Source: Lentisphaeria bacterium | GTDB lineage: Bacteria; Verrucomicrobiota; Lentisphaeria; Oligosphaerales; Oligosphaeraceae | Assembly (NCBI GenBank): GCA_033809415.1 | Contig: JAPXLT010000001.1 | Coordinates: 1 to 43,632, forward strand | Direction: 5' to 3' | Length of the DNA: 43,632 bases | In this document: one piece after another, positions 3 to 43,632 of the stretch | Layout of the letters: each line of letters begins with the position of its first letter | Numbering within the stretch: the first letter of the stretch is position 1 | Notes under the pieces: generated by a model | Told to the model about the DNA's origin: nothing | The model's input: only the letters and a program-made list of their open reading frames with translations | Databases searched by the model: none | Made by a program: the position numbers and the translations under genes

Positions 3-69
3 GCAGGGGGCAGGGGGCAGGGGGCAGGGGGCAGGGGGCAGGGGGCAGGGGGCAGGGGGCAGGGGGCAG
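3..69. repeat. Tandem heptamer array (GGGGGCA) with 9 G5 tracts; G-quadruplex-prone; truncated by window start
   Basis: Direct reading: nine GGGGG runs separated by CA from position 6 to 66, running straight into module A at 70. Confidence 0.95.
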
Positions 70-256
70 GTTTAAAAAGTGGCGCAACCGTCCCGGTTGT
101 GATGGTGTCTTTAGTCTTTTCCTGCTGAATGGCGTGGTGCAGGTGCGGGGGCAGGGTGCAGGGGGCAGGTTTAAAAAGTGGCGCAACCGTCTCGGTTGTG
201 ATGGTGTCTTTAGTCTTTTCCTGCTGAATGGCGTGGTGCAGGTGCGGGGGCAGGGC
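70..256 (+). repeat. Module A' (REP-like hairpin plus 3' extension) as a 99-nt tandem duplication (copies start at 70 and 169)
   Basis: GTTTAAAAAGTGGCGCAACCGTC[C/T]CGGTTGTGATGGTGTCTTTAGTCTTTTCCTGCTGAATGGCGTGGTGCAGGTGCGGGGGCAGGG occurs twice head-to-tail. I see one substitution (C/T in the hairpin loop). The second copy ends early. Confidence 0.9.
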
Positions 257-401: not shown

Positions 402-479
402 GCATGCCGTTTCATCTGTCAAAACAACAACCCTATAGAAAATTTTCGTGCCTTTTCGTGCTTTTCGTTGTTAAAAAAA
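402..479 (+). repeat. D element copy 1 (forward)
   Basis: GCATGCCGTTTCATCTGTCAAAACAACAACCCTATAGAAAATTTTCGTGCCTTTTCGTGCTTTTCGTTGTTAAAAAAA matches the family consensus. It ends 3 nt from the XRE gene stop codon. Confidence 0.9.
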
Positions 480-1172: not shown

Positions 1173-1640
1173 GGCGCAGATTTCCAAGGCCAGGAATCGC
1201 TATGACTTCGGGAATCCTGACGATTCCTATGATTCCTATGATTTCGTAATGGGTTAGTCTTCTGTAGTGCGTAGTGCGGGTCAGACGTGGTGGACAGTGT
1301 GGACAGTGTGGACAGTGTGGACAGGACAAGACCCTCCCCGCACCCCACGACAGTCAGAATAATCACAACCGGGACGGTTGCGCTACTTTTTAAACCTGCG
1401 CCCCCTGCACCCGTTCCCAACGCACTACGCACCACGCACTACGCACCCCATTCCCTTGAACCCTGTACTACAGAAGACTCCTGAGGCATTACATGATTTC
1501 TATGTTTCTGCATGATTCTTTATGATTCTGCTTGCAAATTCGTTTTTGCGGCACTATTTTTTCACCGTGGTTCAGAAATCATCTAGCCCCCACCCACCCA
1601 GGGGGCAAACCACCTTCGGTACGTGCGCGCGAGGCAGCCA
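1173..1640 (-). repeat. Module B copy 1 (reverse orientation), interrupted by MITE copy 1
   Basis: Segments 1173-1245 and 1493-1640 together align with module B at 11468-11644 and 25617-25796 (e.g. TTTTTGCGGCACTATTTTTTCACCGTGGTTCAGAAATCAT...CCCACCCAGGGGGC). Confidence 0.85.
1246..1492 (+). mobile_element. MITE (element E) copy 1, 247 bp, TIRs and 8-bp target-site duplication ATGATTTC
   Basis: Left end GTAATGGGTTAGTCTTCTGTAGT; reverse complement of right end GTAATGCCTCAGGAGTCTTCTGTAGT. ATGATTTC flanks it on both sides (1238-1245 and 1493-1500). Inside are a (GTGGACAGT)x4 array and a module A hairpin. No ORF. Confidence 0.85.
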
Positions 1641-1647
1641 GGCAACT

Positions 1648-1689
1648 GTCGGACAGGTCGGACGGGTCGGACGGGTCGGACAGGTCGGA
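1648..1689. repeat. Tandem 9-mer array (GTCGGACRG, about 4.5 units)
   Basis: GTCGGACAGGTCGGACGGGTCGGACGGGTCGGACAGGTCGG read directly. Confidence 0.9.
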
Positions 1690-1732
1690 TGACCATTCCC
1701 AACGCCCTGTCTCACCCCCTATCCCCTGGCGC

Positions 1733-1803
1733 ATCGCAACCGGGACGGTCGCGCCACCTTTTAAACCTGCCCCCTGCCCCCTGCCCCCTGCCCCCTGCAC
1801 CCT
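1733..1803 (-). repeat. Module A (reverse) followed by C-rich heptamer array (CCCCTGC)n, ending 12 nt before the MFS ATG
   Basis: ATCGCAACCGGGACGGTCGCGCCACCTTTTAAAC then CCTGCCCCCTGCCCCCTGCCCCCTGCCCCCTGCACCC. Confidence 0.9.
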
Positions 1804-1814
1804 TTTTAGAAGAC

Positions 1815-3032: not shown

Positions 3033-3081
3033 CACCAACACGAGTGAAAATTGCACCGCTTTGTGACCAGTCGCGCAAAAG

Positions 3082-3326
3082 GTAATGGGTTAGTCTTCTG
3101 TAGTGCGGTGTGCGTGGTGCGGGTCAGACGTGGTGGACGGTGTGGACGTTGTGGACGTTGTGGACAGGACAAGAACATCCCCCCGCATCCCACGACAGTC
3201 AGAATAATCACAACCGGGACGGTTGCGCTACTTTTTAAACCAGCGCCCTCCCCCCTCGTACCCGTTCCCAACGCACTACGCACCACATTCCCCTGAACCC
3301 TGTACTACAGAAGACTGAGGCATTAC
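3082..3326 (+). mobile_element. MITE (element E) copy 2, 245 bp, same orientation as copy 1
   Basis: Left end GTAATGGGTTAGTCTTCTGTAGT; reverse complement of right end GTAATGCCTCAGTCTTCTGTAGT (20/23 TIR). Flanks are CGCAAAAG and TGCAAAAG (7/8 TSD). The internal 9-mer array is GTGGACGKT instead of GTGGACAGT. Confidence 0.85.
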
Positions 3327-3434
3327 TGCAAAAGTCCCTTTATGCGGTCACTAGTCTGGTTCTTTTGGGGAAAAGATATTATATTATATTTTAGCGTTTT
3401 TCTAACAACAAACTAAAAATAGGAGACTGAAAAT

Positions 3435-4208: not shown

Positions 4209-4283
4209 GAGGGTCTCCCATCCGTCTGAGCAACAACCCTATATAAAATTTCGTGTTTTTTCGTGTGTTTCGTGGTTAAAAAA
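4209..4283 (+). repeat. D element copy 2 (forward)
   Basis: GAGGGTCTCCCATCCGTCTGAGCAACAACCCTATATAAAATTTCGTGTTTTTTCGTGTGTTTCGTGGTTAAAAAA. Starts 4 nt after the pseudopilin stop. Confidence 0.9.
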
Positions 4284-7765: not shown

Positions 7766-7895
7766 TCTTTTTTCTCCGACTGATCCGTCGGAGAAACCAA
7801 TAGACCAGATCATAAATCCGCGTGCCATCCCATCCGTCAGAGCAGCAACCCCTAGAAAATTTTCGTGCCTTTTCGTGTCTTTTCGTGGTTAAAAA
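7766..7895 (+). repeat. D element copy 3, long form (hairpin module plus D core)
   Basis: TTTTTTCTCCGACTGATCCGTCGGAGAAACC...GCGTGCCATCCCATCCGTCAGAGCAGCAACCCCTAGAAAATTTTCGTGCCTTTTCGTGTCTTTTCGTGGTTAAAAAC. Same architecture as 15218-15341 and 31714-31836 in reverse. Confidence 0.9.
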
Positions 7896-11228: not shown

Positions 11229-11669
11229 GGCAGGTGGCAGGGTGCGGGGTGCAGGTTTAAAAAGTGGCGCAACCGTCCCGGTTGTGTGGTGCAGGGTGCA
11301 GGGTGCGGGGTGCGGGGTGCAGGGTGCAGGGTGCAGGGTGCAGGTGTCAGGGTGCAGGGGGCGTAGAGGACTATGTTCTGTCCACCCTGTCCACCGCGTC
11401 CACAATGTCCACTTTATCCATAGTGTCCAGCCTGCCCCCTGCACCCTGCACCCTGCACCCTCCTTCCCTCGCGCACGCGGTAAGGGTGGTTCGCCCCCTG
11501 GTTGGGTGGGGCTTGGAGGCTGTCTGAACCACGGCGAAAAAATAGTGCCGCAAAAACGATTTTTCAAGCAGAATCATAAGAAGTCATGCAGAAACATAGA
11601 AAATCCACAGAAGTCATAGCAATTCCTAATCCTGGAAATCTGCCTTTTCGTGCCTTTCGTGGTTAAAAA
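11229..11669 (+). repeat. Full composite mosaic: G-heptamers / module A / G-heptamers / GTCCAC 9-mers / C-heptamers / module B / D tail
   Basis: G-heptamers 11229-11254. A at 11255-11287. (GGGTGCR)n at 11288-11366. Six 9-mers (GTCCACNNN) at 11380-11433. (CCCTGCA)n at 11434-11463. B at 11468-11644. Partial D (CCTTTTCGTGCCTTTCGTGGTTAAAAAC) at 11641-11669. Confidence 0.9.
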
Positions 11670-11754: not shown

Positions 11755-11967
11755 AGTAGGGTGCAGGGTGCAGGGTGCAGGTTTAAAAAGTAGCGCAACC
11801 GTCCCGGTTGTGATGGTGCAGGGGACAGGGTGCAGGGTGCAGGGTGTGTCCCCTGTCCACGCCGTCCACCCTGTCCACGCCGTCCACCCTGTCCACCCTG
11901 TCCACCCTGTCCACTACGTCTGACCTGCCCCCTGCCCCCTGCACCCTGCACCCTGTCCCCTGCACCC
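11755..11967 (+). repeat. Short composite: G-heptamers / module A / 30-bp perfect inverted repeat enclosing eight GTCCAC 9-mers
   Basis: A at 11781-11816. GGTGCAGGGGACAGGGTGCAGGGTGCAGGG (11815-11844) is the exact reverse complement of 11937-11966. 9-mer units at 11855-11926. Ends 23 nt before the PHP gene ATG. Confidence 0.9.
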
Positions 11968-11989
11968 TTTACCAAAGAATTCTTGCCAG

Positions 11990-12886
11990 ATGAAGATCAA
12001 GCAAAATTTTCACATTCATTCTCAACGCTCCTGTGACAGCGCCTGCGCGAGTATCCTCGATATCATCGCGGAAATGGAGGAGTTCGGGATCGAAGAATAC
12101 GGTTTGACAGATCATATTCATACAGCATACAATCTGCCGGATGTTATAAGTGCAAGAAGGGATTATCTTGCCTCGCGTCCACCGGCAAATTTTCATTTTG
12201 GCGTCGAGGTGAGCTGCATGGATCAGCGGGAATGCGACCGCGTGGCGGCTGGCGATTATACTGCATGGGGTGACGAACCGGTCTATGGCTTCCGCGACAT
12301 GACCGACTATACAGGACAAATGGCCATCGGCATTACGCCGGAGGAAATCCTGGAGCTTGGCATTGAATATGTGGTCGGTGGCGTGCATTGGCCGCTGACA
12401 GTGTCGGAAGACCGTGATACGATCATTCGGAATTATCTCGATCAGCAACTGTTTCTTGTCAGGCATCCATCCGTGCACGTGCTGGCTCATCCCTGGGATT
12501 CACTGGCCCATGCTGTGGGCAACTGGTATAAGTACCGGACTAAGGAGCATGTCGATCTTACCGCATTCCGTTTTATTCCGGAAGAATACAACGATGCCCT
12601 GGCGCAGGCTCTTCTCGAGGAGGGAAAAGCCGCCGAGGTGAATCTCGCCGTTGTCGGGGGTGCTATTCCGGAAGTCCGGGAATATATGTTGAAACTCTTC
12701 GCAGGTTGGAAGCAGAAGGGAGTGAAATTCACCATCGGTGACGACCTGCATAAGGCCCATTTCTCGAAAGAGCTGTTCGAACGTGCAGAACAGTGGCTTA
12801 CAGAATGGGGGTTTGCAGAGAATGATTTTGTGCTTCCGTTTCAACAGAAATCGAAACAATATTTGCCAGAGCAACAAACCCTATAA
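11990..12886 (+). CDS. PHP-domain metal-dependent phosphoesterase (histidinol-phosphatase-like)
   Basis: 298-aa ORF. N-terminal FHIHSQRSCDS and LTDHIHT resemble the PHP His/Asp metal motifs. The last 7 codons and the TAA stop lie inside D element copy 5. Confidence 0.65.
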   Translation: MKIKQNFHIHSQRSCDSACASILDIIAEMEEFGIEEYGLTDHIHTAYNLPDVISARRDYLASRPPANFHFGVEVSCMDQRECDRVAAGDYTAWGDEPVYGFRDMTDYTGQMAIGITPEEILELGIEYVVGGVHWPLTVSEDRDTIIRNYLDQQLFLVRHPSVHVLAHPWDSLAHAVGNWYKYRTKEHVDLTAFRFIPEEYNDALAQALLEEGKAAEVNLAVVGGAIPEVREYMLKLFAGWKQKGVKFTIGDDLHKAHFSKELFERAEQWLTEWGFAENDFVLPFQQKSKQYLPEQQTL

Positions 12887-12926
12887 AAAATTTTCGTGCC
12901 TTTTCGTGTTTTTTCGTTGTTAAAAA
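12866..12926 (+). repeat. D element copy 5 (forward), overlapping the 3' end of the PHP gene
   Basis: CCAGAGCAACAAACCCTATAAAAAATTTTCGTGCCTTTTCGTGTTTTTTCGTTGTTAAAAAA. Confidence 0.9.
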
Positions 12927-19417: not shown

Positions 19418-19494
19418 TGGTGGGCCCAGCTGGACTTGAACCAGCGACCCGGTGATTATGAGTCACCTGCTCTGACCGACTGAGCTATGGGCCC
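19418..19494 (-). tRNA. tRNA with anticodon CAT (elongator Met or lysidine-modified Ile2), CCA encoded
   Basis: The reverse complement folds as a canonical cloverleaf: GGGCCCA-TA-GCTC-AGTCGGTCA-GAGC-A-GGTGA-CTCATAA-TCACC-GGGTC-GCTGG-TTCAAGT-CCAGC-TGGGCCC-A-CCA. Position 1:72 is paired and there is no GGG/CCC in the anticodon stem, so it is not an initiator. C4:G69/C5:G68 and the T-arm resemble what I recall of E. coli ileX. Confidence 0.93.
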
Positions 19495-22377: not shown

Positions 22378-23579
22378 AATGGATCAAGCAGGATGAAACC
22401 CTGCGTGTGCCCATCAAGAGCTGGTGTGAACCCATCGAGGAAGGGGCGTTGCAGCAGGCAATGGACCTGGCGCGCCACCCGGTCATCGAGCATCATGTGG
22501 CCCTGATGCCGGATTGCCACCTTGGTTACGGAATGCCGATCGGCGGCGTCATCGCAGTCAAAGATGCCATCTTGCCAAGTGCAGTCGGCGTGGATATCGG
22601 CTGCGGAATGGTCGCAGTCGAGACCAATCTTCCCGCAGAACGGCTCGCCAAAGTTACGGCGCGGCGTGCAATCCAGGAAAAGCTGAAGGCGCGAATTCCT
22701 GTCGGGGAAGGGGTGGCGCATCGGCAGAAACAGGAGTGGGAGGGCTTCGAACGCTACCTTGACGCCAACGGCACGGTCTGCGACTTCCCAAACGCTTTGG
22801 ACAGGCGCAACCTGGGTACGCTGGGCGGAGGGAACCACTTCATCGAACTGCAGAAATCAGACACCGGCTTTATCTGGCTGATGATCCATTCCGGAAGCCG
22901 CAACCTGGGGCAGCGGGTGGAAAAGCATTACCAGGCGAAGGCCAAGAAACTCAATGAGGCATTCAAAGCCAAGCTGCCTAATCCGGTACTGGCGTTCCTC
23001 CCCATGGAAACCAAGGAAGGAAAGGACTATTTCCGTGACATGACATTCGCCTTGGAATATGCGCTGGAAAACCGCCGCCGAATGATGATCATCTTCAAGG
23101 AAATCCTGCTCGAAACAGTCCCGGAAACGGAATTCCTGCAGGAAGTCAATATCCACCATAACTACGCTGCGCTGGAATCGCATTTCGGACAGAATCTATA
23201 CATCCACCGCAAAGGTGCAACCAGTGCAAAAAAAGATGAAATAGGAATCATCCCAGGCTCCATGGGAACGGCAAGCTACATCGTTCGGGGACTGGGCAAT
23301 CCAGAGTCGTTCATGAGCTGCTCGCATGGCGCAGGACGAACGATGAGCCGCACGGCAGCAAGCGCAAACCTGACCGTCGAGGAGTGCAACGCGGCAATGG
23401 AGGGAATCGTCTTCGAGCGTTGGAGCAAGTATAGGGGATTCGACAAGCGCCACAAGGGACGCCTCGATCTCTCCGAAGCACCACAGGCATATAAGCCAAT
23501 CGACGAAGTCATCGCTGCCGAAGCAGACCTGGTCGAACCAATTGTCCGACTGACGCCAATGGCAGTACTCAAAGGATAG
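22374..23579 (+). CDS. rtcB: RNA-splicing ligase RtcB
   Basis: ATGA overlap with rtcA. Motifs PDCHLGYGMPIGGV, DIGCGM, GGGNHFIE, HHNYA, GSMG and SCSHGAGR. Confidence 0.95.
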   Translation: MKWIKQDETLRVPIKSWCEPIEEGALQQAMDLARHPVIEHHVALMPDCHLGYGMPIGGVIAVKDAILPSAVGVDIGCGMVAVETNLPAERLAKVTARRAIQEKLKARIPVGEGVAHRQKQEWEGFERYLDANGTVCDFPNALDRRNLGTLGGGNHFIELQKSDTGFIWLMIHSGSRNLGQRVEKHYQAKAKKLNEAFKAKLPNPVLAFLPMETKEGKDYFRDMTFALEYALENRRRMMIIFKEILLETVPETEFLQEVNIHHNYAALESHFGQNLYIHRKGATSAKKDEIGIIPGSMGTASYIVRGLGNPESFMSCSHGAGRTMSRTAASANLTVEECNAAMEGIVFERWSKYRGFDKRHKGRLDLSEAPQAYKPIDEVIAAEADLVEPIVRLTPMAVLKG

Positions 23580-23582
23580 GGC

Positions 23583-23702
23583 AGGGTGCGGGGTGCGGGG
23601 TGCGGGGTGCGGGGTGCGGGGTGCGGGGTGCGGGGTGCGGGGTGCAGGGGGCAGGGGGCAGGGGGCAGGGGGCAGGGGGCAGGGGGCAGGGGGCAGGGGG
23701 CA
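23583..23702. repeat. Two adjoining G-rich heptamer arrays: (GGGGTGC)x8 then (GGGGGCA)x8
   Basis: Read directly. Sixteen G4-G5 tracts in about 120 nt, starting 4 nt after the rtcB stop codon. Confidence 0.95.
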
Positions 23703-23703
23703 G

Positions 23704-23767
23704 GTTTAAAAAGTGGCGCAACCGTCCCGGTTGTGATGGTGCCTTTAGTCTTTTCCCGCTGAATGAC
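23704..23767 (+). repeat. Module A' (forward)
   Basis: GTTTAAAAAGTGGCGCAACCGTCCCGGTTGTGATGGTGCCTTTAGTCTTTTCCCGCTGAATGAC. Near-identical to 70-133. Confidence 0.9.
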
Positions 23768-23795
23768 AGAGGCAGTGGTCAGTGGACAGTCTTCC

Positions 23796-24020
23796 GTCCA
23801 CAGCGTCCACAATGTTCACCCCGTCCACCCAGTCCACCCAGTCCACCCAGTCCACAGCGTCCACCCAGTCCACCCAGTCCACCCAGTCCACCCAGTCCAC
23901 AGCGTCCACCCAGTCCACCCAGTCCACCCAGTCCACAGCGTCCACCCAGTCCACCCAGTCCACCCAGTCCACCCAGTCCACCCAGTCCACCCAGTCCACC
24001 CAGTCCACCCAGGCCACAAT
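23796..24020. repeat. Tandem 9-mer array, 25 units (GTCCACCCA punctuated by GTCCACAGC)
   Basis: Unit-by-unit reading: AGC, AAT, a degenerate unit, CCAx3, AGC, CCAx4, AGC, CCAx3, AGC, CCAx8, then a degenerate end unit GGCCACAAT. Confidence 0.95.
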
Positions 24021-24039
24021 GTCTCTTCCGTATCCTATA

Positions 24040-25446
24040 AATGCTAACTTGTTTTTCAGGCAAAAAAGGCTTCTAATGACATGGATTTTTCCCCAGCGTC
24101 GGTCGGATTTTCTGCCTGATCGCATCCCAGTCCGCCGCCAGTTTGGGCGGCTTAATCATTGATGCGTCCTACTGTGGCGCGGCATGATACAATACCTTGA
24201 ATTTGCTCCACAAATTTCTGCGTGTCGCTTGAACAAGGCACGGCTCTCCAGGGGGAGAACGCTCCCCGGCGGGCGCTAAGGCGTTCAATTAAAAGCGCAA
24301 TAAACATTTTACCGTGCAGCCATGCCTGAGCGCTGCTGTCCGTATACTTTGGCAGCGCCCCGATCCTGGCTATGCTTTTGAATCTCTTGAACACAGGCTC
24401 CACCTGCCACCGGAGCCTGTATAGTTCAAGGACTTGTTTCAGGCTGAAAATCTCCGTGGGCAACGTCGTTATCAAGACAATGAAATCGCATGCGAGAAGC
24501 GCAAGCTCGGAGGTAGTCTTCTGCTTCTTTGAAGCCGCAACACTGTTCAGGACTCTTCTGGCGCGTTCCGCCGATTCGTCGTTTCTCCGGATGATGCAGA
24601 CGCGGCACGGCAGCTTCTCCCCCGGCGCATCGCCATGAATGAAGACATCGGCCTCGCCGCACATCCCATCACGCGGATGTGCCTTGAAAAGACCTCGGAT
24701 GTCGAAGGCACTTCCATCTCCGTTGTACAATGGAAGGGTTCCACTGTCCCAGCGGACGCAGCTGTATCCGCCTCCCGCCGCTACGTGCCGGATGCTGTTG
24801 AACCTGCAGTATCCCCAGTCGCTCACCATGATGTCATTCGGCTCGATTTCAAACTGCTCCAGCCCTTCAGCCACCGCTTTTGTAAGGTTGAAGGAGTCGC
24901 AAGCCATGTCCGGTAGCGAATAGCTGTAATGCAGCTTCCATCGCGTGCCGAACTGCCCCGTTTCTCTGATGCTCACTCCGTCAGCCAGACGGATGCGGTA
25001 GCCGTCGAAATCCGCGCCGCAGCTGACATTGCCGAACATTGCCGCGCAAAGCTCCTTGAACATATCGCTGCTTTTGCGGAGGCGTTTCAGGAGTGCTACA
25101 TCGCTCAAGGATGCAATGCCCGCCTCGGCGGCGATTGCGGATGTCTCACGGAGCGAGTACCCGCAGAGGAGGTGGAGCATAAGCACATGCATCAGCCTCT
25201 CCGGTTCCTTGTCTTTCCGCTGTCCTTTCAGCACATTGGTGGCCGCAGCGATCTCCCGCCAATTAGCCGGAAAACATGCCAGAAAATCGTCCCACGCCGA
25301 AATGTCATCTGTCTTGAAAACGCTTGAAGGTGTGTCGCTCATAATCTGCATCCTGTTGCCTGATTCTCAACGAAAAAACAACATAAAAATAATGTAAACC
25401 ATCAGCAACGAAATGCAATCTATGAAATCGAAAATAAGTTAGCAAA
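24040..25446 (-). mobile_element. IS4-family insertion sequence (about 1.4 kb); ends approximate
   Basis: Single DDE transposase ORF. Terminal inverted repeat core TGCTAACTTRTTTT at 24042-24055 and, reverse-complemented, at 25431-25444. I could not resolve the target-site duplication in the A/T-rich flanks. Confidence 0.75.
24152..25351 (-). CDS. IS4-family DDE transposase
   Basis: 399 aa. C-terminal YRLRWQVEPVFKRFK fits the IS4-family Y-(2)-R-(3)-E-(6)-K signature. N-terminal LMHVLMLHLLCGYSLRETSAIA...SDVALLKRLRKS is typical of IS4-like transposases. Confidence 0.85.
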   Translation of the reverse strand: MQIMSDTPSSVFKTDDISAWDDFLACFPANWREIAAATNVLKGQRKDKEPERLMHVLMLHLLCGYSLRETSAIAAEAGIASLSDVALLKRLRKSSDMFKELCAAMFGNVSCGADFDGYRIRLADGVSIRETGQFGTRWKLHYSYSLPDMACDSFNLTKAVAEGLEQFEIEPNDIMVSDWGYCRFNSIRHVAAGGGYSCVRWDSGTLPLYNGDGSAFDIRGLFKAHPRDGMCGEADVFIHGDAPGEKLPCRVCIIRRNDESAERARRVLNSVAASKKQKTTSELALLACDFIVLITTLPTEIFSLKQVLELYRLRWQVEPVFKRFKSIARIGALPKYTDSSAQAWLHGKMFIALLIERLSARRGAFSPWRAVPCSSDTQKFVEQIQGIVSCRATVGRIND

Positions 25447-25450
25447 ATAA

Positions 25451-25796
25451 GGGCAGGGTGCAGGGGTCAGGGTGCAGGGGTCAGGGTGCAGGAGGCAGGG
25501 GCAGGGGCAGGGGCAGGGGCAGGGGCAGGGTGCGTCTTCTGTCCACAATGTCCACAGCGTCCACCCTGTCCACCCCGTCCACCCTGTACCCTGCCTGCCT
25601 CGCATCCTCCTGCCGTTACGCGCGCGCACGTACCGAGGGTGGGTTGCCCCCTGGGTGGGTGGGGCTGGATGATTTCTGAACCACGGCGAAAAAATAGTGC
25701 CGAAAAACCGAAATTTCAAGCAAAATCATAAGAAGTTATACAGAAACATAGAAAATCCTACAAAATCCTACAATTCCTAAGCCTGGGAATCTGCGT
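25451..25796 (+). repeat. Composite mosaic: G-rich heptamer/hexamer arrays / GTCCAC 9-mers / module B copy 3
   Basis: GGGCAGGGTGCAGGGGTCAGGG... then a (GGGGCA)x5-6 run inside the 25497-25538 G-rich stretch. Five 9-mers at 25547-25591. B at 25617-25796 (…CTGAACCACGGCGAAAAAATAGTGCCGAAAAACCGAAATTTCAAGCAAAATCATAAGAAG…). Confidence 0.9.
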
Positions 25797-25898: not shown

Positions 25899-26025
25899 TT
25901 TTTTTTACAACGAAAAACACGAATGGACACGAAAAAATTTCATGGAAAATACGACTTGTTCTCGCAGACAAAGCCACTTCCATGAAATTTTTTCGTGTCC
26001 TTTCGGGCATTTCGTTGTTCAAAAA
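25899..26025. repeat. Inverted pair of D elements (copies 10 and 11) forming a long hairpin
   Basis: TTTTTTTACAACGAAAAACACGAATGGACACGAAAAAATTTCATGG, a 34-nt loop, then CCATGAAATTTTTTCGTGTCCTTTCGGGCATTTCGTTGTTCAAAAA. The inner 21 bp are perfectly complementary. Confidence 0.85.
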
Positions 26026-31836: not shown

Positions 31837-32002
31837 GCGTTTCATTCTCTTTCATGGATAGTGGCAAGAACGGGAAACGAATGGCTGATCGGCGATGTAG
31901 GAATTAGCCCTGAAGGGGCGTGACATACCAGCCCAGGGCAACGCCCTGGGTTCGGATACCCATCCATCCGCAAAGCCCTGAAAGGGCGCGACATAATCTC
32001 TG

Positions 32003-32133: not shown

Positions 32134-32218
32134 ACGAAAATTTTTTTATAGGGTTGTTGCTTCGACGGATGAAATGGCATGTGGTTTAAAAAGTAGCGCA
32201 ACCGTCTCGGTTGTGATT
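32134..32218. repeat. D fragment (reverse) fused to module A (forward); the same junction as 40319-40430 in the opposite orientation
   Basis: ACGAAAATTTTTTTATAGGGTTGTTGCTTCGACGGATGAAATGGCATGTG-GTTTAAAAAGTAGCGCAACCGTCTCGGTTGTGAT. Confidence 0.85.
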
Positions 32219-36097: not shown

Positions 36098-36284
36098 GGA
36101 CGGGACACGGACTGGACACGGACTGGACACGGACTGGACACGGACTGGACACGGACTGGACACGGACTGGACACGGACTGGACACGGACTGGACACGGAC
36201 TGGACACGGACGGGACACGGACTGGACACGGACTGGACACGGACTGGACACGGACTGGACACGGACTGGACACGGACGGGACAG
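36098..36284. repeat. Tandem 11-mer array, 17 units (GGACTGGACAC x14 and GGACGGGACAC/G x3)
   Basis: Counted directly: 187 nt = 17 x 11, with variant units at positions 1, 11 and 17. It starts 15 nt upstream of the recQ ATG. Confidence 0.95.
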
Positions 36285-36293
36285 ACATTTCAG

Positions 36294-36363
36294 CACCCTG
36301 TCCCCTGCACCCTACCCCCTGCCCCCTGCCCCCTGTCCCCTGTCCCCTGCACCCTGCACCCGC
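36294..36363. repeat. C-rich heptamer array (CCCTGCA / CCCCTGC / CCCCTGT), overlapping the 3' end of larA
   Basis: CACCCTGTCCCCTGCACCCTACCCCCTGCCCCCTGCCCCCTGTCCCCTGTCCCCTGCACCCTGCACCCGC. Confidence 0.9.
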
Positions 36364-37643
36364 ACGATAACAGAGACTCCGTCTGGGATAATCGCGATTT
36401 TGGCGCTTGAGCCGGTTTTTCGTCTGGCCAGCATCAGTGCCTCTTCGAGTGTACCGGCTGCCTGCATATGCATGGCCTGAATCATCGCGTGATTGCGTTG
36501 CTCCGTAACCACGATCACCGGATTTTTCGACAGGACTCTCGCCAGTATCTGGCTTTCCCATTGATCAGGAACCGTCTCGGTCGCCGGAACCTTCCGCAGC
36601 TTTTCCAGGACTTCTGCGGGGGACTTTGCTTCTGCCAGCGTGCGATAGAATCCCTCGCCGCCATGCCCGTCCTGGCAGGCTGCCGCGATGATGATGACTC
36701 CGCCCGGCGCGACCGCTGCTTCCGCCGCAGTCATTCCCTTGACTGCCTGATAGAGGTTCTGATCGAGCGGATAGCCCCCATTGCTGGTGATCACAATTTC
36801 ACTTTCCGGCACTTTAATCAAGGACAAGCCGGACATTTCCCGGCAGCCGGTCTCGTGTGCCGCAAAGGCGTCCCCCGCAAAAGCCCGCACAACTTCCTTT
36901 TCGCCATTCAAAATAACATTAACAATAAATGCAAGGCCCGCTTTCTTTGCCGCCCAGAGCATATCCCTGTGCAGCGGATTATTCTCGAGGTTCCCAGTGC
37001 GAGCAAATTCCGAATCGATAAAGGCCGCGCAGTGATTGCTCAAGACCGTCGTGCGACCGGCTATCCCTGGCAGCACGCTTTTGCGTCCGCCGGAGAATCC
37101 GGCAAAGAAATGCGGTTCGATGAAGCCTTCCGCGAGCAGCAAGTCTGTCTCGAGGGCAAGTTTATTCAGCCACAACTCGCCTCCGGATGGCAGGATTCCC
37201 GCGAATGCCAGCGAAGATTGATCCTGGCAGTCGTGCACGACGATATGTTCCCGGTCAACGATTTCGTCGCCGAACTTTCTCCGCAATTCCGCCTCTGTCG
37301 TTGCCCGGTGGAATCCAGTGGCAATCAGGATGGTGATCTGAATTTCCGGATTCCCACGGCGCAATTCCCGCAGCATTGGCGGCATGATGACCTTGCTGGG
37401 CACAGGACGGGTATGGTCGCTGGCGATGATTACCGCAGTTCTTTTGCTGCGGGCAAGTTCTGCCAGCCCACTCGAACCAATCGGCTGCGCCAGTGCTTTG
37501 TCTACCAGTTCCATCCCGGAGCTTCGAGGACGCTCCTGCTCGATCATCGAGCGAAAAATCCCGGCGACATCCTCTCTCGCCAGAGATAATTCCAACTTCC
37601 CATGCCCATAAGGAATCTGCGCGGTAATTTCCATTTTGCCCAT
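36312..37643 (-). CDS. larA: Nickel-pincer-dependent lactate racemase LarA (DUF2088 family)
   Basis: Collinear with L. plantarum LarA as I recall it: SDHTRPVPS, EGFIEPHFFAGFSGGRKSVLPGI, NGGYPLDQNLYQAVKGMTAAEA, GHGGEGFY, PDQWESQI, IIPDGVSVIV. The last 16 residues (RVQGAGDRGQGAGGRG) and the stop come from the heptamer array. Confidence 0.88.
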   Translation of the reverse strand: MGKMEITAQIPYGHGKLELSLAREDVAGIFRSMIEQERPRSSGMELVDKALAQPIGSSGLAELARSKRTAVIIASDHTRPVPSKVIMPPMLRELRRGNPEIQITILIATGFHRATTEAELRRKFGDEIVDREHIVVHDCQDQSSLAFAGILPSGGELWLNKLALETDLLLAEGFIEPHFFAGFSGGRKSVLPGIAGRTTVLSNHCAAFIDSEFARTGNLENNPLHRDMLWAAKKAGLAFIVNVILNGEKEVVRAFAGDAFAAHETGCREMSGLSLIKVPESEIVITSNGGYPLDQNLYQAVKGMTAAEAAVAPGGVIIIAAACQDGHGGEGFYRTLAEAKSPAEVLEKLRKVPATETVPDQWESQILARVLSKNPVIVVTEQRNHAMIQAMHMQAAGTLEEALMLARRKTGSSAKIAIIPDGVSVIVRVQGAGDRGQGAGGRG

Positions 37644-37686
37644 AAAAAATTCGTGCTTTTTCGTATCTTTTCGTTGTTAAGAAAAG
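37644..37686 (+). repeat. D element fragment, copy 15 (forward), filling the folC-larA gap
   Basis: AAAAAATTCGTGCTTTTTCGTATCTTTTCGTTGTTAAGAAAAG. The folC stop codon (TTA on plus, 37677-37679) lies in its GTTAAG end. Confidence 0.8.
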
Positions 37687-38909
37687 AGCTTTTCTCCAAT
37701 ACATGCAGTGAAGAAAGACCCCGTGAAGAGCAGGGGAGTTTCTGCTGGCAGCTGGCTCTTGTCCTGCAAGTTTTCAAGGATTGCGTTCACCTTCAACCCC
37801 GCTTTTGCTGCGTGTTCCTGCAATTCTTTCAGGGCAGAACCCTTGCTGGTATGCGGATTGGTGAGAATATAGTCCGCATCGAGTTTTTTCAGCGCCTCGA
37901 CCATGCCTGCGACATCCTTGCCCTGGACCATGCCCAGAACGACCGTAAAATGAATGCCGGGGTAAAGTTCTTGCAACGCCGCAACCAGCTTCTGCATCGA
38001 ATCCGCATTGTGTGCGGCATCCAGAACAACCAGAGGCACCGTGCTGATCGTTTCACAGCGGGCACGCAATTCCGGCAAGCGGAAGCGATCCCAGACCGGA
38101 TGCAAGCCAAGAACATTCATCACCTGCAACGCCACCGTGAAATTACTCCGCAGAAATGGAGCACAAGCCGACGGCAGAATCCCACCCGGAATATTCTGTA
38201 CCGGAAGCGGACGATATACCGGCACCTCGAGTTCACGGGCGCGTGCCATGATCACTTCTTCCGCCGCCGGAAAAGGCTGTTCGGCCAGCACCAGAGGACA
38301 ACCGCGCTTGAGAATGCCAGCTTTTTCCCCGGCAATCGCTTCAATGCTCGAACCGAGCAGAGCTAGATGATCATAACTTACCGGAGTAATCACCGTGCAT
38401 TGCGGCGAGGAAATATAATTCGTCGCATCGAGGCGTCCGCCAATACCCGTCTCGAGCACAACCCAGTCCAAACCCTCCTTGGCAAAGATTTTCAGAGCTA
38501 GAACCGTGAAAATCTCGAACAAACTGGGTTCCAGGCCAGCGGCAGCAAGCTTTTCGCAGAATTCCTGTCCCGCAGCAGTCAGCGTCTCGTAGGAGACCAA
38601 CTGATTGTCAATCTGAAAACGCTCACGCACCGTAGCCAAATGCGGACTGGTGAAGAGTCCGACCCGCTGCCCGCAAGCAGAAAGCAGGCTCGAGATATAA
38701 TGCGAAGTCGAACCCTTGCCCTTGGTGCCCGCAACGTGGACAATCTTCAGAGAACCCTCCGGATTGCCTGCCAGAGCCGCCAGCGGCAGCATCCTTGCTA
38801 AAGAGTAATTAGCAGGATCATGCTGACGCTTGGCATCTCTTTCTGAATCATAATAATGCTGGAACAACGAAAAAAAAGCCCGTTCCGCATCTTCCCTGTA
38901 ACCGCGCAT
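37677..38909 (-). CDS. folC: Folylpolyglutamate synthase / dihydrofolate synthase
   Basis: Mur-ligase P-loop HVAGTKGKGST, then FTSPHL, ETGIGGRLDATN and DAAHN in the C-domain. 410 aa. Confidence 0.85.
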   Translation of the reverse strand: MRGYREDAERAFFSLFQHYYDSERDAKRQHDPANYSLARMLPLAALAGNPEGSLKIVHVAGTKGKGSTSHYISSLLSACGQRVGLFTSPHLATVRERFQIDNQLVSYETLTAAGQEFCEKLAAAGLEPSLFEIFTVLALKIFAKEGLDWVVLETGIGGRLDATNYISSPQCTVITPVSYDHLALLGSSIEAIAGEKAGILKRGCPLVLAEQPFPAAEEVIMARARELEVPVYRPLPVQNIPGGILPSACAPFLRSNFTVALQVMNVLGLHPVWDRFRLPELRARCETISTVPLVVLDAAHNADSMQKLVAALQELYPGIHFTVVLGMVQGKDVAGMVEALKKLDADYILTNPHTSKGSALKELQEHAAKAGLKVNAILENLQDKSQLPAETPLLFTGSFFTACIGEKLFS

Positions 38910-38917
38910 AACCCAGA

Positions 38918-38954
38918 GTTTTCGTGCCTTTTCGTGTCTTTTCGTTGTTAAAAA
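38918..38954 (+). repeat. D element fragment, copy 16 (forward)
   Basis: GTTTTCGTGCCTTTTCGTGTCTTTTCGTTGTTAAAAA. Confidence 0.85.
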
Positions 38955-39339: not shown

Positions 39340-39408
39340 TTTTTAACAACGAAAAGCACGAAAAGTACGAAAATTTTCGTGTCTTTTCGTGCTTTTCGTT
39401 GTTAAAAA
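39340..39408. repeat. Head-to-head D element dimer (copies 17a and 17b), a near-perfect 69-nt palindrome
   Basis: TTTTTAACAACGAAAAGCACGAAAAGTACGAAAATTTTCGTGTCTTTTCGTGCTTTTCGTTGTTAAAAA. The outer 26 bp are perfectly complementary. The psd stop codon lies in the right-hand GTTAAAAA. Confidence 0.9.
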
Positions 39409-40292
39409 AATGTGTTCCGTCCGATTTCTTCTCCCATTCGCACTAGGCATTCCATATTTTCGCCGCTCTTTTCCAGCAAGTCTGCCGAAAAATTGACCCT
39501 GCCTGCCGGAAAGATCAGAATAATCGTCGAACCTCCAAATGCAAAAAAACCTTTTTCCTCGCCGCGACGGAAGGCAGACCCCTCGAAGGTCTGTTGAATC
39601 GAGGCAACCCCGAAGGCGCCCACTTCGATAAAGGCCGTTTTGCCGAAACCCTTCAATTCGAGTATCGAGACCTGGCGAACATTTTCGGAGAATACCCGCA
39701 GCCCCCGCTGTAATGCCAACGGATGAACGGAATGATATTTACCGCGCAGACGCCAGGTCTTCAGAAGCTGTCCGTCCGCCGGAAAATGATAGCGGTGATA
39801 ATCGGCTGGGCACAGACGGCAGATGCACAACGCCCCGTCCTTGAATCCCTCGACCAGGTCTGCTCCCTCGAGTCCCAGCAGCTCCGCAACCGTGAAGCGT
39901 GTCCCCTTGACCGGAATACAGCAATCCCCGCTTAACTTTGGATAGACCAACATCCGGCAATCTGCCGGAGAAATCAAACAATCCTCGTTTTCCGCCAGTG
40001 GGCGTGCGCCCGGCTTCAGTTTCCGGGTAAAAAAATCATTGAAGCTCGAAAAACCGCCGTCGGGCATCTCGACTTCGGACAGATCAATACCCAATTCCTT
40101 GACTGTTCCGGCAATCCTTCTCCTGGAAAACCGCGAGTCCGCATAGAACCCCAGCAGCCGCGAACACAAAGACCCGGCAAACAGAGGCCAATGCAAGCAT
40201 TTCCCGAAAGCGGACTGATAAGCAAAGCGCAACAGCGAGTCACCAAGCACTTTCTCCTGCTCGATGCAACCCGTCCGCCGATTATAAATCAT
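39402..40292 (-). CDS. psd: Phosphatidylserine decarboxylase proenzyme
   Basis: FNDFFTRKLKPGARP, and the self-cleavage motif FGGSTI (GST). Start set at MIYNRRTG (40292) by analogy with other Psd N-termini. The upstream in-frame TTG/ATG at 40319/40316/40310 abut module A. Confidence 0.85.
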   Translation of the reverse strand: MIYNRRTGCIEQEKVLGDSLLRFAYQSAFGKCLHWPLFAGSLCSRLLGFYADSRFSRRRIAGTVKELGIDLSEVEMPDGGFSSFNDFFTRKLKPGARPLAENEDCLISPADCRMLVYPKLSGDCCIPVKGTRFTVAELLGLEGADLVEGFKDGALCICRLCPADYHRYHFPADGQLLKTWRLRGKYHSVHPLALQRGLRVFSENVRQVSILELKGFGKTAFIEVGAFGVASIQQTFEGSAFRRGEEKGFFAFGGSTIILIFPAGRVNFSADLLEKSGENMECLVRMGEEIGRNTFF

Positions 40293-40318: not shown

Positions 40319-40430
40319 ATCACAACCGGGACGGTTGCGCCACCTTTTAAACCGCTTGCCATTCCATCCGTCAAAGCAGCAACCCTACAAAAAATTTTCG
40401 TGTCTTTTCGTGTCTTTTCGTTGTTCAAAA
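40319..40430. repeat. Module A (reverse) fused to D element copy 18 (forward)
   Basis: ATCACAACCGGGACGGTTGCGCCACCTTTTAAAC-CGCTT-GCCATTCCATCCGTCAAAGCAGCAACCCTACAAAAAATTTTCGTGTCTTTTCGTGTCTTTTCGTTGTTCAAAA. The FAD oxidoreductase stop (TCA on plus, 40425-40427) is inside GTTCAAAA. Confidence 0.9.
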
Positions 40431-42264: not shown

Positions 42265-42340
42265 GCGTGCCAGCCCATCCGTCGAAGCACCAACCCCATA
42301 AAAATTTTTCGTGCCTTTTCGTGCTTTTCGTTGTTAAAAA
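42265..42340 (+). repeat. D element copy 19 (forward), near-consensus full core
   Basis: GCGTGCCAGCCCATCCGTCGAAGCACCAACCCCATAAAAATTTTTCGTGCCTTTTCGTGCTTTTCGTTGTTAAAAA. Ends 2 nt from the kdsD stop. Confidence 0.9.
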
Positions 42341-42341
42341 C

Positions 42342-43534: not shown

Positions 43535-43632
43535 GTGGACAGTGTGGACAGTGTGGACAGTGTGGACAGTGTGGACAGTGTGGACAGTGTGGACAGTGTG
43601 GACAGTGTGGACAGTGTGGACAGTGTGGACAG
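43535..43632. repeat. Tandem 9-mer array (GTGGACAGT), at least 11 units, truncated by window end
   Basis: Perfect GTGGACAGT repeats from 43535 to the last base. It is the same unit as the array inside MITE copy 1 (1289-1325). Confidence 0.95.

What the first reader, a model, noticed from the sequence alone, without database searches (positions are those of the whole stretch)
1246..1492. A 246-bp MITE with TIRs and an 8-bp target duplication, nested inside another repeat (module B)
Seen: element E has termini GTAATG-N5/8-GTCTTCTGTAGT in inverted orientation. Copy 1 is flanked on both sides by ATGATTTC. The sequences left (1173-1245) and right (1493-1640) of it join into one uninterrupted module B when compared with the intact copies at 11468-11644 and 25617-25796; the empty site reads ...CCTATGATTTCTATGTTTCTGCATG... 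That is a textbook filled-versus-empty site comparison, so E inserted by transposition into B. E carries a module A hairpin, a 9-mer array and G/C-rich arms. This shows that at least some A-plus-array cassettes travel as MITE cargo. No transposase with matching ends is in the window; the resident IS4 ends (TGCTAACTT...) do not match.
Basis: seen in the sequence. Interest (0 to 1): 0.65.

Follow-up and report, generated by a model that had tools for sequence, protein, structure and literature searches.

The report
IS66-type MITE nested in another repeat
The 247-bp element is a real miniature transposon with no transposase gene, sitting inside another repeat in an uncultured Lentisphaeria bacterium from anaerobic digesters, and its ends match those of an IS66-family insertion sequence found in related metagenome contigs, so it is a clear but fairly ordinary new example of a known kind.

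Summary
E1 (window 1246-1492, 247 bp) has inverted ends GTAATG-N5/N8-GTCTTCTGTAGT. It is flanked by ATGATTTC on both sides and splits one copy of module B. A second copy, E2 (3082-3326), has a 7/8 duplication.

The internal 29-mer of E found copies at 10 or more further sites in digester metagenomes. Of 8 complete E copies, 3 have perfect 8-bp duplications, 4 have 7/8 and 1 has none.

The same 23-nt end bounds several structurally different non-coding elements in five Lentisphaeria MAGs. In those it also comes with 8-bp duplications.

The likely mobilising element was found. L093 is a 2459-bp insertion sequence with 22-bp perfect inverted repeats GTAATGGGTCAGTCTTCTGTAG. It encodes a DUF6788 protein and an IS66-family transposase (Pfam PF03050; NCBIfam NF033517, above cut-off). 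L093 comes from the same metagenome sample as a near-identical copy of the window. Ends starting GTAA, 20-30-bp inverted repeats and 8-bp duplications are the IS66 signature.

No such transposase lies in the window. The resident IS there is IS4-type with unrelated ends.

No allelic empty site was found, and both copies are present in every syntenic contig that covers their sites. The "cargo" claim holds for the E family, but only 2 of the 10 module A copies in the window lie inside E.

Verdict: new member of a known kind, of moderate interest.

The parts
1246..1492 (+). E1, a complete non-autonomous element (MITE), 247 bp
   Evidence: It folds as a long hairpin as single-stranded DNA (z = -3.2). 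It carries no transposase.
1246..1268 (+). Left terminal inverted repeat of E1, GTAATGGGTTAGTCTTCTGTAGT
   Evidence: It matches the inverted repeat of the IS66-family element L093 at 21 of 22 positions.
1467..1492 (-). Right terminal inverted repeat of E1, GTAATGCCTCAGGAGTCTTCTGTAGT, with a 3-nt insertion in the spacer
1238..1245 (.). Left copy of the target-site duplication, ATGATTTC
1493..1500 (.). Right copy of the target-site duplication, ATGATTTC
1290..1324 (+). 9-mer array (GTGGACAGT) x3.9 inside E1. The unit number varies from 2 to 7 among E copies.
1361..1396 (+). Module A inside E1: hairpin CAACCG-GGA-CGGTTG followed by CGCTACTTTTTAAACC
1420..1447 (+). Right arm (ACGCACTACGCACC) x2, which is the inverse of the GTGCGTAGTGCG arm at 1267-1279
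1173..1245 (+). Left part of module B copy 1, interrupted by E1
1493..1640 (+). Right part of module B copy 1
3082..3326 (+). E2, the second complete copy (245 bp), lying between the MFS gene stop (3032) and the DUF1559/prepilin-type gene start (3435)
3074..3081 (.). Left flank of E2, CGCAAAAG (7/8 duplication)
3327..3334 (.). Right flank of E2, TGCAAAAG
11468..11644 (-). Module B copy 2, uninterrupted (a paralogous empty site)
25617..25796 (-). Module B copy 3, uninterrupted (a paralogous empty site)

Best explanation
E1 is a MITE: a short, non-coding deletion or mosaic derivative that keeps the terminal inverted repeats of an IS66-family insertion sequence. That IS resembles the ISBst12 group in lacking tnpA/tnpB; it encodes a small DUF6788 protein and a roughly 590-aa TnpC-type DDE transposase.

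The inferred mechanism is as follows. The transposase, supplied in trans from an autonomous copy elsewhere in the genome, binds the roughly 23-bp ends. It inserts the element with 8-bp staggered cuts, and repair of these gives the 8-bp duplication.

E1 landed in the short tandem-unit stretch of a module B copy, in the promoter region between the divergent HTH-cupin and MFS genes. E2 landed downstream of the MFS gene.

The interior of E (7-mer arms, a 9-mer array and the module A hairpin) is passenger sequence of a kind that also occurs outside E. Its arrays change unit number by slippage after insertion.

Shown: the ends, the duplications, the many insertion sites, the shared ends with an IS66-family element, and the nesting in B. 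Inferred: mobilisation in trans by that transposase, its presence in the same genome, and the cut geometry.
For: Ends and duplication in the window:
- Inverted ends and the 8/8 duplication are read directly.
- B is contiguous once E1 and one duplicate are removed.

Other E copies:
- E copies lie at 10 or more other sites in metagenome contigs. Duplications are CTCTGGTC 8/8 (L085), CACAGAGT 8/8 (L077), 7/8 in L084, L074, L086 and E2, and none in L071/L078.
- The chance of 7/8 or better is 3.8e-4 per element.
- E1 and L085 are 98% identical, which suggests recent spread.

Same ends in other elements:
- The same end occurs in 58 loci of four Lentisphaeria MAG species, with only one chance hit elsewhere in 596 Gb.
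- Complete sister elements have 8/8 duplications: L029, L030, L034, L046 and L068. L069 has 9/9; L024 and L094 have 7/8.

Autonomous partner:
- L093 positions 246-2704 have 22-bp perfect inverted repeats GTAATGGGTCAGTCTTCTGTAG and encode DUF6788 plus a 597-aa transposase. The transposase scores PF03050 at 1.8e-26 and NF033517 at 186 bits against a cut-off of 180.
- L014, L091 and L092 are relatives with the same ends.
- The right subterminal sequence of L014, GTCTTCTGTAATACAGGGT(ACAGGGT)n, matches the right subterminal sequence of E, GTCTTCTGTAGTACAGGGTTCA.
- L093 comes from JGI sample 3300064082, the same sample as L001, which is a near-identical copy of the window.

Literature:
- IS66 has 20-30-bp inverted repeats starting GTAAGCG and 8-bp direct repeats (PMC11946415).
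- The ISBst12-group element ISDge4 has inverted repeats starting GTGACT/GTAACT and an 8-bp direct repeat (PMC12898284).

Abundance:
- Depth over E-specific segments is about 25-100 times that of the single-copy flanks in DNA runs. This is a sum over the whole community.
Against: - No IS66 transposase lies in the 43.6-kb window. L093 is a 3-kb contig that cannot be assigned to the window's genome.
- The one complete IS copy (L093) has no duplication, and the terminal hexamer of L014's right end is missing.
- No allelic empty site was found. Every syntenic metagenome contig that covers the sites carries the copy there (E2 in nine, E1 in six). The exception is L002, where a different IS has rearranged the region.
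- No site-skipping contig was seen for E2. The one seen for E1 is best read as a paralogous B copy.
- Several E copies have deletions within their ends, and E1 has a 3-nt insertion in its right end. Many copies may therefore no longer be mobile.
- The E1 duplication sits in a tandem-unit context, which on its own weakens that single case.
Confidence: 0.85

Rival explanations
1. The array-plus-hairpin cassette is the primary spreading unit, by an unknown mechanism, and it inserted into or recombined with a small pre-existing IS66-type MITE. On this view E is a MITE that was colonised, rather than a MITE that picked up cargo when it formed. E would still move as a MITE afterwards.
For: - The same ordered cassette also occurs without any E ends at 11758-11970, 11232-11460 and 23579-24040. 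Its order is: G-rich 7-mers, module A, a 9-mer GTGGAC/TCCAC array, CACGTCTGACC, then C-rich 7-mers.
- Only 2 of 10 module A copies lie inside E.
- Minimal MITEs with the same ends and almost no interior exist (L034, 113 bp).
- Metagenome contigs L070, L072, L076, L083 and L090 join the left half of E, through module A, to the common A-D13-D7 composite.
Against: - No boundaries, duplications or enzyme are known for the cassette.
- All full E copies share the same interior, so the interior was in place before the family spread.
- The chimeric contigs could come from recombination at module A, or from assembly joins in short-read data.
Confidence: 0.15
2. E is not transposed at all. The inverted ends and flanking octamers arose locally by tandem duplication or recombination within the repeat-rich intergenic region.
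For: - The E1 site lies within short tandem units (ATGATTCCT-like), and B1 has 25 extra nt of such units.
- One E copy (L071/L078) has no duplication.
Against: - E occurs at 10 or more unrelated sites, and similarity ends exactly at the termini.
- The flanking 8-mers differ from site to site.
- Sister elements in other species show the same pattern.
- The ends equal those of a transposase-bearing IS.
Confidence: 0.02
3. E is mobilised by a transposase other than the IS66-family one, and the shared ends reflect capture or convergence.
For: - The IS66-type partner was not shown to be in the same genome.
- The window's resident IS is IS4-type.
- Another DUF6788-linked IS, with a DDE_5 transposase, is active at this very locus in L002.
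Against: - The IS4 ends (GCTAACTT) and the L002 IS ends (ACTTGAGAGTACCGAGTT) are unrelated to the ends of E.
- E and the IS66-type ends agree at 21 of 22 positions, and the right subterminal sequences are also similar.
- An 8-bp duplication and a GTAA start fit IS66 (PMC11946415).
Confidence: 0.05

Closest known systems
IS66 family insertion sequences, in particular elements like the ISBst12 group that lack tnpA/tnpB
   Same: - Inverted repeats start with GTAA and are 22-23 bp long.
- The target duplication is 8 bp.
- The partner element encodes a TnpC-type DDE transposase that passes the NCBIfam NF033517 and Pfam PF03050 cut-offs (PMC11946415, PMC12898284).
   Different: - E itself has no transposase.
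- The partner IS carries an upstream, overlapping DUF6788 gene rather than tnpA/tnpB. The transposase is about 590 aa, against about 450-530 aa for most hits.
- The inverted repeat reads GTAATG, not the canonical GTAAGCG.
- The host is uncultured Lentisphaeria.
Bacterial MITEs paired with a resident IS, such as MITEPsy1 with ISPsy2 in Pseudomonas syringae (PMC3189936), and Correia, RUP and Nezha elements (from my own knowledge)
   Same: E is short (113-370 bp across the superfamily) and non-coding. It has inverted ends identical to those of an IS, target duplications of the IS-typical length, many copies, an intergenic location and a long hairpin fold.
   Different: - MITEPsy1 mobility was shown experimentally; E's is inferred.
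- The IS family and duplication length differ (IS5-like with 4 bp, against IS66 with 8 bp).
- The interior of E is a mosaic of short-period tandem arrays and a hairpin module that are also found free in the genome.
Modular intergenic mosaic repeats such as BOX (boxA, variable boxB, boxC) in pneumococcus and BIMEs in E. coli (from my own knowledge)
   Same: The window's intergenic regions are built from a small set of reusable modules (A, B, D7, D13 and 7-, 9- and 11-mer arrays). Unit number is variable and modules are nested.
   Different: BOX and BIME elements lack IS-type inverted ends and duplications. Here at least one module set is demonstrably bounded by IS66-type ends with 8-bp duplications.

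Membership tests
MITE (miniature inverted-repeat transposable element) | Small size (under about 600 bp) and no transposase | tested here: met
   E1 is 247 bp and E2 is 245 bp. tblastn with the IS66 transposase finds no hit. Copies differ by indels that are not multiples of three within the arrays.
MITE (miniature inverted-repeat transposable element) | Terminal inverted repeats | tested here: met
   GTAATG-N5/8-GTCTTCTGTAGT at both ends of E1 and E2. Shuffles give 0.00 expected.
MITE (miniature inverted-repeat transposable element) | Target-site duplication of constant length at independent insertions | tested here: met
   The duplication is 8 bp. Among 8 complete E copies, 3 are perfect, 4 are 7/8 and 1 has none. 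Sister elements give 5 perfect, 1 at 9/9 and 2 at 7/8.
MITE (miniature inverted-repeat transposable element) | Multiple dispersed copies | tested here: met
   Two copies in the window. 21 metagenome contigs cover 10 or more further sites. Depth is 25-100 times that of the flanks.
MITE (miniature inverted-repeat transposable element) | Filled and empty alleles of the same site (insertion polymorphism) | tested here: inconclusive
   Only paralogous empty sites were found: B2, B3, and uninterrupted B-like contigs in runs X1, X16 and X3. Every syntenic contig that covers the sites carries E1 and E2. Orthologous loci L094 and L095 lose homology at the gene borders.
MITE (miniature inverted-repeat transposable element) | Observed transposition | not testable with these tools
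   This needs an in vivo or in vitro assay.
IS66-family-derived element | Inverted repeats of 20-30 bp starting with GTAA | tested here: met
   The repeats are 22-23 bp and start GTAATG. The criterion is taken from PMC11946415.
IS66-family-derived element | 8-bp direct repeat at the insertion site | tested here: met
   The criterion is taken from PMC11946415 and PMC12898284.
IS66-family-derived element | An autonomous element with the same ends that encodes an IS66 (TnpC) transposase | tested here: met
   L093 positions 246-2704: perfect 22-bp inverted repeats, PF03050 at 1.8e-26, NF033517 at 186.4 bits against a cut-off of 180. L014, L091 and L092 are partial relatives.
IS66-family-derived element | That autonomous element resides in the same genome as E | tested here: inconclusive
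   It is absent from the window. L093 is from the same JGI sample as the window-like contig L001, but it is an unbinned 3-kb contig.
IS66 family, canonical three-gene type (tnpA-tnpB-tnpC) | tnpA and tnpB present upstream of tnpC | tested here: not met
   The partner IS has only a 101-102-aa DUF6788 ORF overlapping the start of tnpC. It therefore resembles the ISBst12-type organisation, but with an extra small gene.

The most novel reading that the evidence does not exclude
One IS66-type end set (GTAATG-N5-GTCTTCTGTAGT) serves across Lentisphaeria as a common chassis for many unrelated non-coding payloads. These include palindromic 9-mer arrays, G-rich 7-mer arrays, the module A hairpin, and a roughly 110-nt three-hairpin module. 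The array-and-hairpin cassettes that fill this organism's intergenic regions would then be a separate, self-propagating or selected system (for example protein-binding or G-quadruplex arrays, terminators or leaders), which the MITEs capture and spread rather than carrying as junk.
Probability: 0.15. Interest if true: 0.6.

Novelty: new member of a known kind. Interest (0 to 1): 0.35.

Why it matters
- It gives a mechanism and a named transposase family for part of the unusually dense intergenic repeat content of uncultured digester Lentisphaeria.
- It adds a well-documented MITE superfamily to the IS66 family, whose transposition is poorly understood. The conserved terminal hexamer and internal 12-mer could guide binding studies.
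- It flags DUF6788 as a recurrent small partner of two unrelated transposases.
- It explains why these MAGs fragment: contigs repeatedly end at this inverted repeat.
- It does not change any general concept.

Tried and rejected
- **Allelic empty sites.** Ten syntenic metagenome contigs were checked. All that cover the sites carry E1 and E2. L002 lacks E2, but only because another IS with DUF6788 and a DDE_5 transposase, plus a rearrangement, replaces the region.
- **Orthologous loci through MFS homologues.** L094 and L095 are 84-86% identical in nucleotides, but homology stops at the start and stop codons, so no empty site can be defined.
- **Laying DNA contigs on the region.** For E2 no skipping contig was seen. 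For E1 a contig in X1 and X16 joins 1243 to 1493 with CCT in between. Follow-up showed many B paralogues with different tandem units, so I read this as a paralogous site, not an allelic one.
- **Metatranscriptome contigs.** Module A and D7 are deep in RNA, but no deeper than their DNA copy number predicts. One contig runs from the MFS gene 30 nt into E2. No functional conclusion follows.
- **Rfam.** Nothing matches E, module A or module B.
- **Promoter and terminator scan.** Only the module A hairpin is flagged, and weakly, on both strands.
- **A consistent orientation of module A relative to genes.** None was found.
- **Contigs for transposase relatives P0004 and P0005.** They are too short to show the ends.
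- **Han et al. 2001 on IS66.** The paper is not held in the library.

Full report

Yes. Window 1246-1492 (247 bp) begins GTAATGGGTTAGTCTTCTGTAGT and ends ACTACAGAAGACTCCTGAGGCATTAC. The octamer ATGATTTC abuts both termini, at 1238-1245 and 1493-1500.

The end pattern occurs four times in the window, as two inverted pairs, against 0.00 expected in shuffles. The second pair bounds E2 (3082-3326). E2 aligns with E1 from terminus to terminus at 84-89% identity and is flanked by CGCAAAAG and TGCAAAAG.

With E1 and one octamer removed, the flanks align colinearly with the two intact module B copies (11468-11644 and 25617-25796, minus strand) straight through the junction.

One caveat applies. The site is inside a run of 9-nt units (ACGATTCCT ATGATTCCT ATGATTTC), and B1 has 25 extra nt of such units. 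The E1 duplication alone would therefore be weaker evidence than it looks.

**2. Where the window comes from**

The genes are typical of Lentisphaeria, for example a prepilin/DUF1559 protein. Rfam finds an Acido-Lenti-1 RNA. Identical or near-identical contigs come from anaerobic digester and biogas metagenomes. The exact genome is not among the GTDB species representatives, because no hit has the window's GGTTA spacer.

**3. Other copies**

*The E family.* A scan of metagenome contigs with a 29-mer specific to the interior of E returned 21 contigs. One of them is E1 itself (L073). The rest cover at least ten other sites. For complete copies the ends were located by similarity, without reference to the flanks. 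Their flanking octamers are:

| Copy | Flanking octamers | Match |
|---|---|---|
| L085 | CTCTGGTC / CTCTGGTC | 8/8 |
| L077 | CACAGAGT / CACAGAGT | 8/8 |
| L084 | CCTGAAGT / CCTGAGGT | 7/8 |
| L074 | TTCAAATA / CTCAAATA | 7/8 |
| L086 | CTGCTTAC / CTGCTTAT | 7/8 |
| L071 = L078 | no match | none |

With E1 and E2 this gives 3 perfect, 4 at 7/8 and 1 with none. The chance of 7/8 or better is 3.8e-4 per element. Copies are 83-98% identical (E1 against L085, 98%). They differ mainly in the number of 9-mer units (2-7) and 7-mer units (1-4), and in small deletions inside the ends.

*The wider superfamily.* A scan of 596 Gb of genomes with the end pattern gave 58 loci in four Lentisphaeria MAG species and a single chance hit, in an Arthrobacter. 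There the same 23-nt end bounds elements with entirely different interiors. Those that are complete again have 8-bp duplications:

| Locus | Duplication | Match |
|---|---|---|
| L029 | TCAAAAAG | 8/8 |
| L030 | CATTTGCC | 8/8 |
| L034 | AAATCCAG | 8/8 |
| L046 | GACCTATT | 8/8 |
| L068 | AAAATTAT | 8/8 |
| L069 | 9 bp | 9/9 |
| L024 | — | 7/8 |

A fifth genome gives another 7/8 case, L094.

For L024, L046 and L068 I found the right end by using the duplication itself, so those three are not independent tests. Many MWEG01-type elements showed no partner end with a duplication within 4 kb.

**4. The mobilising element**

L014 (MAG STF1_46) has the end GTAATGGGTCAGTCTTCTGTAGTAC. It is followed by a 101-aa DUF6788 gene that overlaps a 586-aa gene with the IS66 transposase domain.

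A homologue search gave close relatives, and their contigs were fetched. L093 holds a complete element at positions 246-2704:

- Its inverted repeats are 22 bp and perfect, GTAATGGGTCAGTCTTCTGTAG.
- It encodes DUF6788 and a 597-aa transposase.
- The transposase scores PF03050 at 1.8e-26 and NCBIfam NF033517 'IS66 family transposase' at 186 bits, above the cut-off of 180.

The E1 left end differs from this inverted repeat at one base. The right subterminal sequence of E (…GTAGTACAGGGTTCA…) resembles the right subterminal (ACAGGGT)n array of L014.

L091 and L092 show the same right ends. Their contigs begin just inside the left inverted repeat, the usual sign of an assembly breaking at a repeat.

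L093 comes from the same JGI sample as L001, a near-identical copy of the window. It cannot be assigned to the same genome.

Published descriptions give IS66 elements 20-30-bp inverted repeats starting GTAAGCG and 8-bp direct repeats (PMC11946415). An ISBst12-group member has ends starting GTGACT/GTAACT and an 8-bp direct repeat (PMC12898284).

The window itself contains no IS66 transposase.

**5. How it most likely works**

E is a non-autonomous IS66-family derivative moved in trans by the TnpC-type transposase. The 8-bp duplications imply 8-bp staggered target cuts. The ends, the duplications, the multiple sites and the shared ends with a transposase-bearing IS are shown. Trans-mobilisation and co-residence in one genome are inferred.

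As single-stranded DNA, E folds into a long hairpin through its ends and GTGCGTA/TACGCAC arms (z = -3.2 and -3.8). This is usual for MITEs.

E1 lies in the 754-bp region between the divergent HTH-cupin gene (start at 1060, minus strand) and the MFS gene. The likely true start of the MFS gene is 1815, where homology to orthologues begins. That region is almost entirely repeats.

E2 lies 50 nt after the MFS stop codon. One metatranscriptome contig runs from the MFS gene 30 nt into E2. I found no evidence that either copy has a function for the host.

**6. The 'cargo' claim**

All full E copies carry the same interior, so this cassette does travel with the E ends. However, the window has ten module A copies and only two are inside E.

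The same ordered cassette also occurs without E ends at 11232-11460, 11758-11970 and 23579-24040. Its order is G-rich 7-mers, module A, a GTGGAC-type 9-mer array, CACGTCTGACC, then C-rich 7-mers.

Five metagenome contigs join the left half of E, through module A, to the common A-D13-D7 composite. These could reflect recombination at module A or assembly joins. MITE transport therefore explains a minority of the cassettes, and their own origin remains open.

**7. Insertion polymorphism**

This was not demonstrated. Every syntenic contig that covers the sites carries E1 and E2. Orthologues in sister species lose homology at the gene borders.

A contig in two DNA runs skips E1 and reads …ATGATT-CCT-ATGATTTC-TATG…, with the octamer present once. 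Follow-up showed many near-identical B paralogues with different unit numbers, so I count this as a close paralogous empty site only.

**8. Verdict**

This is a real MITE, correctly interpreted, and now tied to the IS66 family. It is a new member of a known kind, and interest is moderate. The points a specialist might note are:

- MITEs assigned to IS66 are rarely described.
- One end set is shared by several unrelated non-coding families in at least five Lentisphaeria genomes.
- The partner IS has an unusual DUF6788+TnpC gene pair.
- The surrounding array-and-hairpin cassettes are unexplained.

Noticed in passing
window 82-99, 181-198, 1737-1754, 11267-11284, 11793-11810, 23716-23733, 32196-32213, 40323-40340 (plus the two copies inside E1 and E2): Module A (CAACCGGGACGGTTGCGC-YAC-TTTTTAAACC) occurs 10 times in 43.6 kb, and 8 of those lie outside any E end. 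It is usually flanked by 9-mer GTGGAC-type arrays on one side and C-rich 7-mer arrays or the D13-D7 composite on the other. I found no consistent orientation relative to genes.
   Followed up: partly
window 429-478, 4234-4283, 7846-7895, 12877-12926, 25976-26025, 37634-37683, 38905-38954, 39360-39409, 40381-40430, 42292-42341: A roughly 50-nt module, …AAAATTTTCGTGCCTTTTCGTGTCTTTTCGTTGTTAAAAA, has ten copies. It often lies within a few nt of a stop codon or about 45 nt before a start codon. In other genomes, about 8 of some 45 insertions bearing this end sit directly beside this module (L022, L029, L038/L069, L053, L055, L083, L088, L090). This suggests a target preference, or simply shared intergenic niches.
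   Followed up: partly
window 3-70, 11288-11359, 23579-23704, 25451-25530 (G-rich strand) and 1766-1803, 11924-11968, 36296-36361 (C-rich strand): These are long arrays of 7-mers such as (GCAGGGG)n and (GGTGCAG)n, up to 18 units. Runs of G3-5 spaced 2-4 nt apart are the textbook pattern for G-quadruplex formation. That is my inference and was not tested.
   Followed up: no
window 23817-24017, 36098-36283, 43535-43632: Three very regular arrays: (CACCCAGTC) x22; (GGACTGGACAC) x17 at 97% match; and (GTGGACAGT) x11 or more at 100% match, which runs off the window end. The last uses the same 9-mer unit as the array inside E1.
   Followed up: no
window 48-255: A 99-bp unit (7-mers, module A and a spacer) is duplicated in tandem 2.1 times at 98% identity. 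Whole cassettes therefore also duplicate locally.
   Followed up: no
window 24043-25444: An IS4-family insertion sequence: a 399-aa DDE_Tnp_1 transposase, scoring NF033592 at 114.7 bits against a cut-off of 115, with ends GCTAACTT…AAGTTAGC. It is inserted between a 9-mer array and a 6/7-mer array.
   Followed up: yes
L002 2470-4570, against window 3082-3400: In one biogas metagenome strain, a different IS with ends ACTTGAGAGTACCGAGTT sits directly upstream of the 256-aa gene. It carries a 110-aa DUF6788 gene and a 462-aa DDE_5 transposase, and the MFS gene and E2 are replaced by other genes. DUF6788 thus accompanies two unrelated transposase families (IS66-type and DDE_5-type). No paper in the library mentions DUF6788.
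   Followed up: partly
L017-L068 (MWEG01 and JBMNFR01 loci), for example L020 3764-4060: In two other MAG species the same end is followed by a conserved module of about 110 nt with three hairpins: GTGCCTTTACAAGGCAC, CCCCAGGCTGAAGCCTGGGG and GCGCCTACGGCGC. The first stem shows compensatory changes (TT..AA against CC..GG in L031, L050 and L057). The far end has only a short inverted repeat, GTAATCGGTCAG. I do not know whether this is an RNA or a DNA structure.
   Followed up: no
L086 1-355; L070, L072, L076, L083, L090: L086 has two E copies 9 bp apart in tandem. Five contigs have the left half of E joined at module A to the A-D13-D7 composite. In L083 and L090 the whole unit is flanked by direct repeats of about 29-40 nt of the TTTCGTG module. 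These could be recombination products or assembly chimeras.
   Followed up: partly
window 31906-31950 (-), 19421-19494 (-): An Acido-Lenti-1 sRNA (38.2 bits against a cut-off of 37) and a tRNA.
   Followed up: no
window 1689-1814: Some metagenome gene calls start the MFS gene at 1689 (447 aa), which would translate through a 9-mer array, module A and a 7-mer array. Other calls, and homology to orthologues, start it at the ATG at 1815 (405 aa).
   Followed up: partly
window 1509-1566 (right half of module B): At 95% identity or better, this part of module B is 20-30 times deeper than the single-copy flanks in digester DNA runs, and many paralogues have different tandem units to its left. Module B is therefore itself a high-copy family. 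Its nature is unknown, and Rfam has no match for it.
   Followed up: partly
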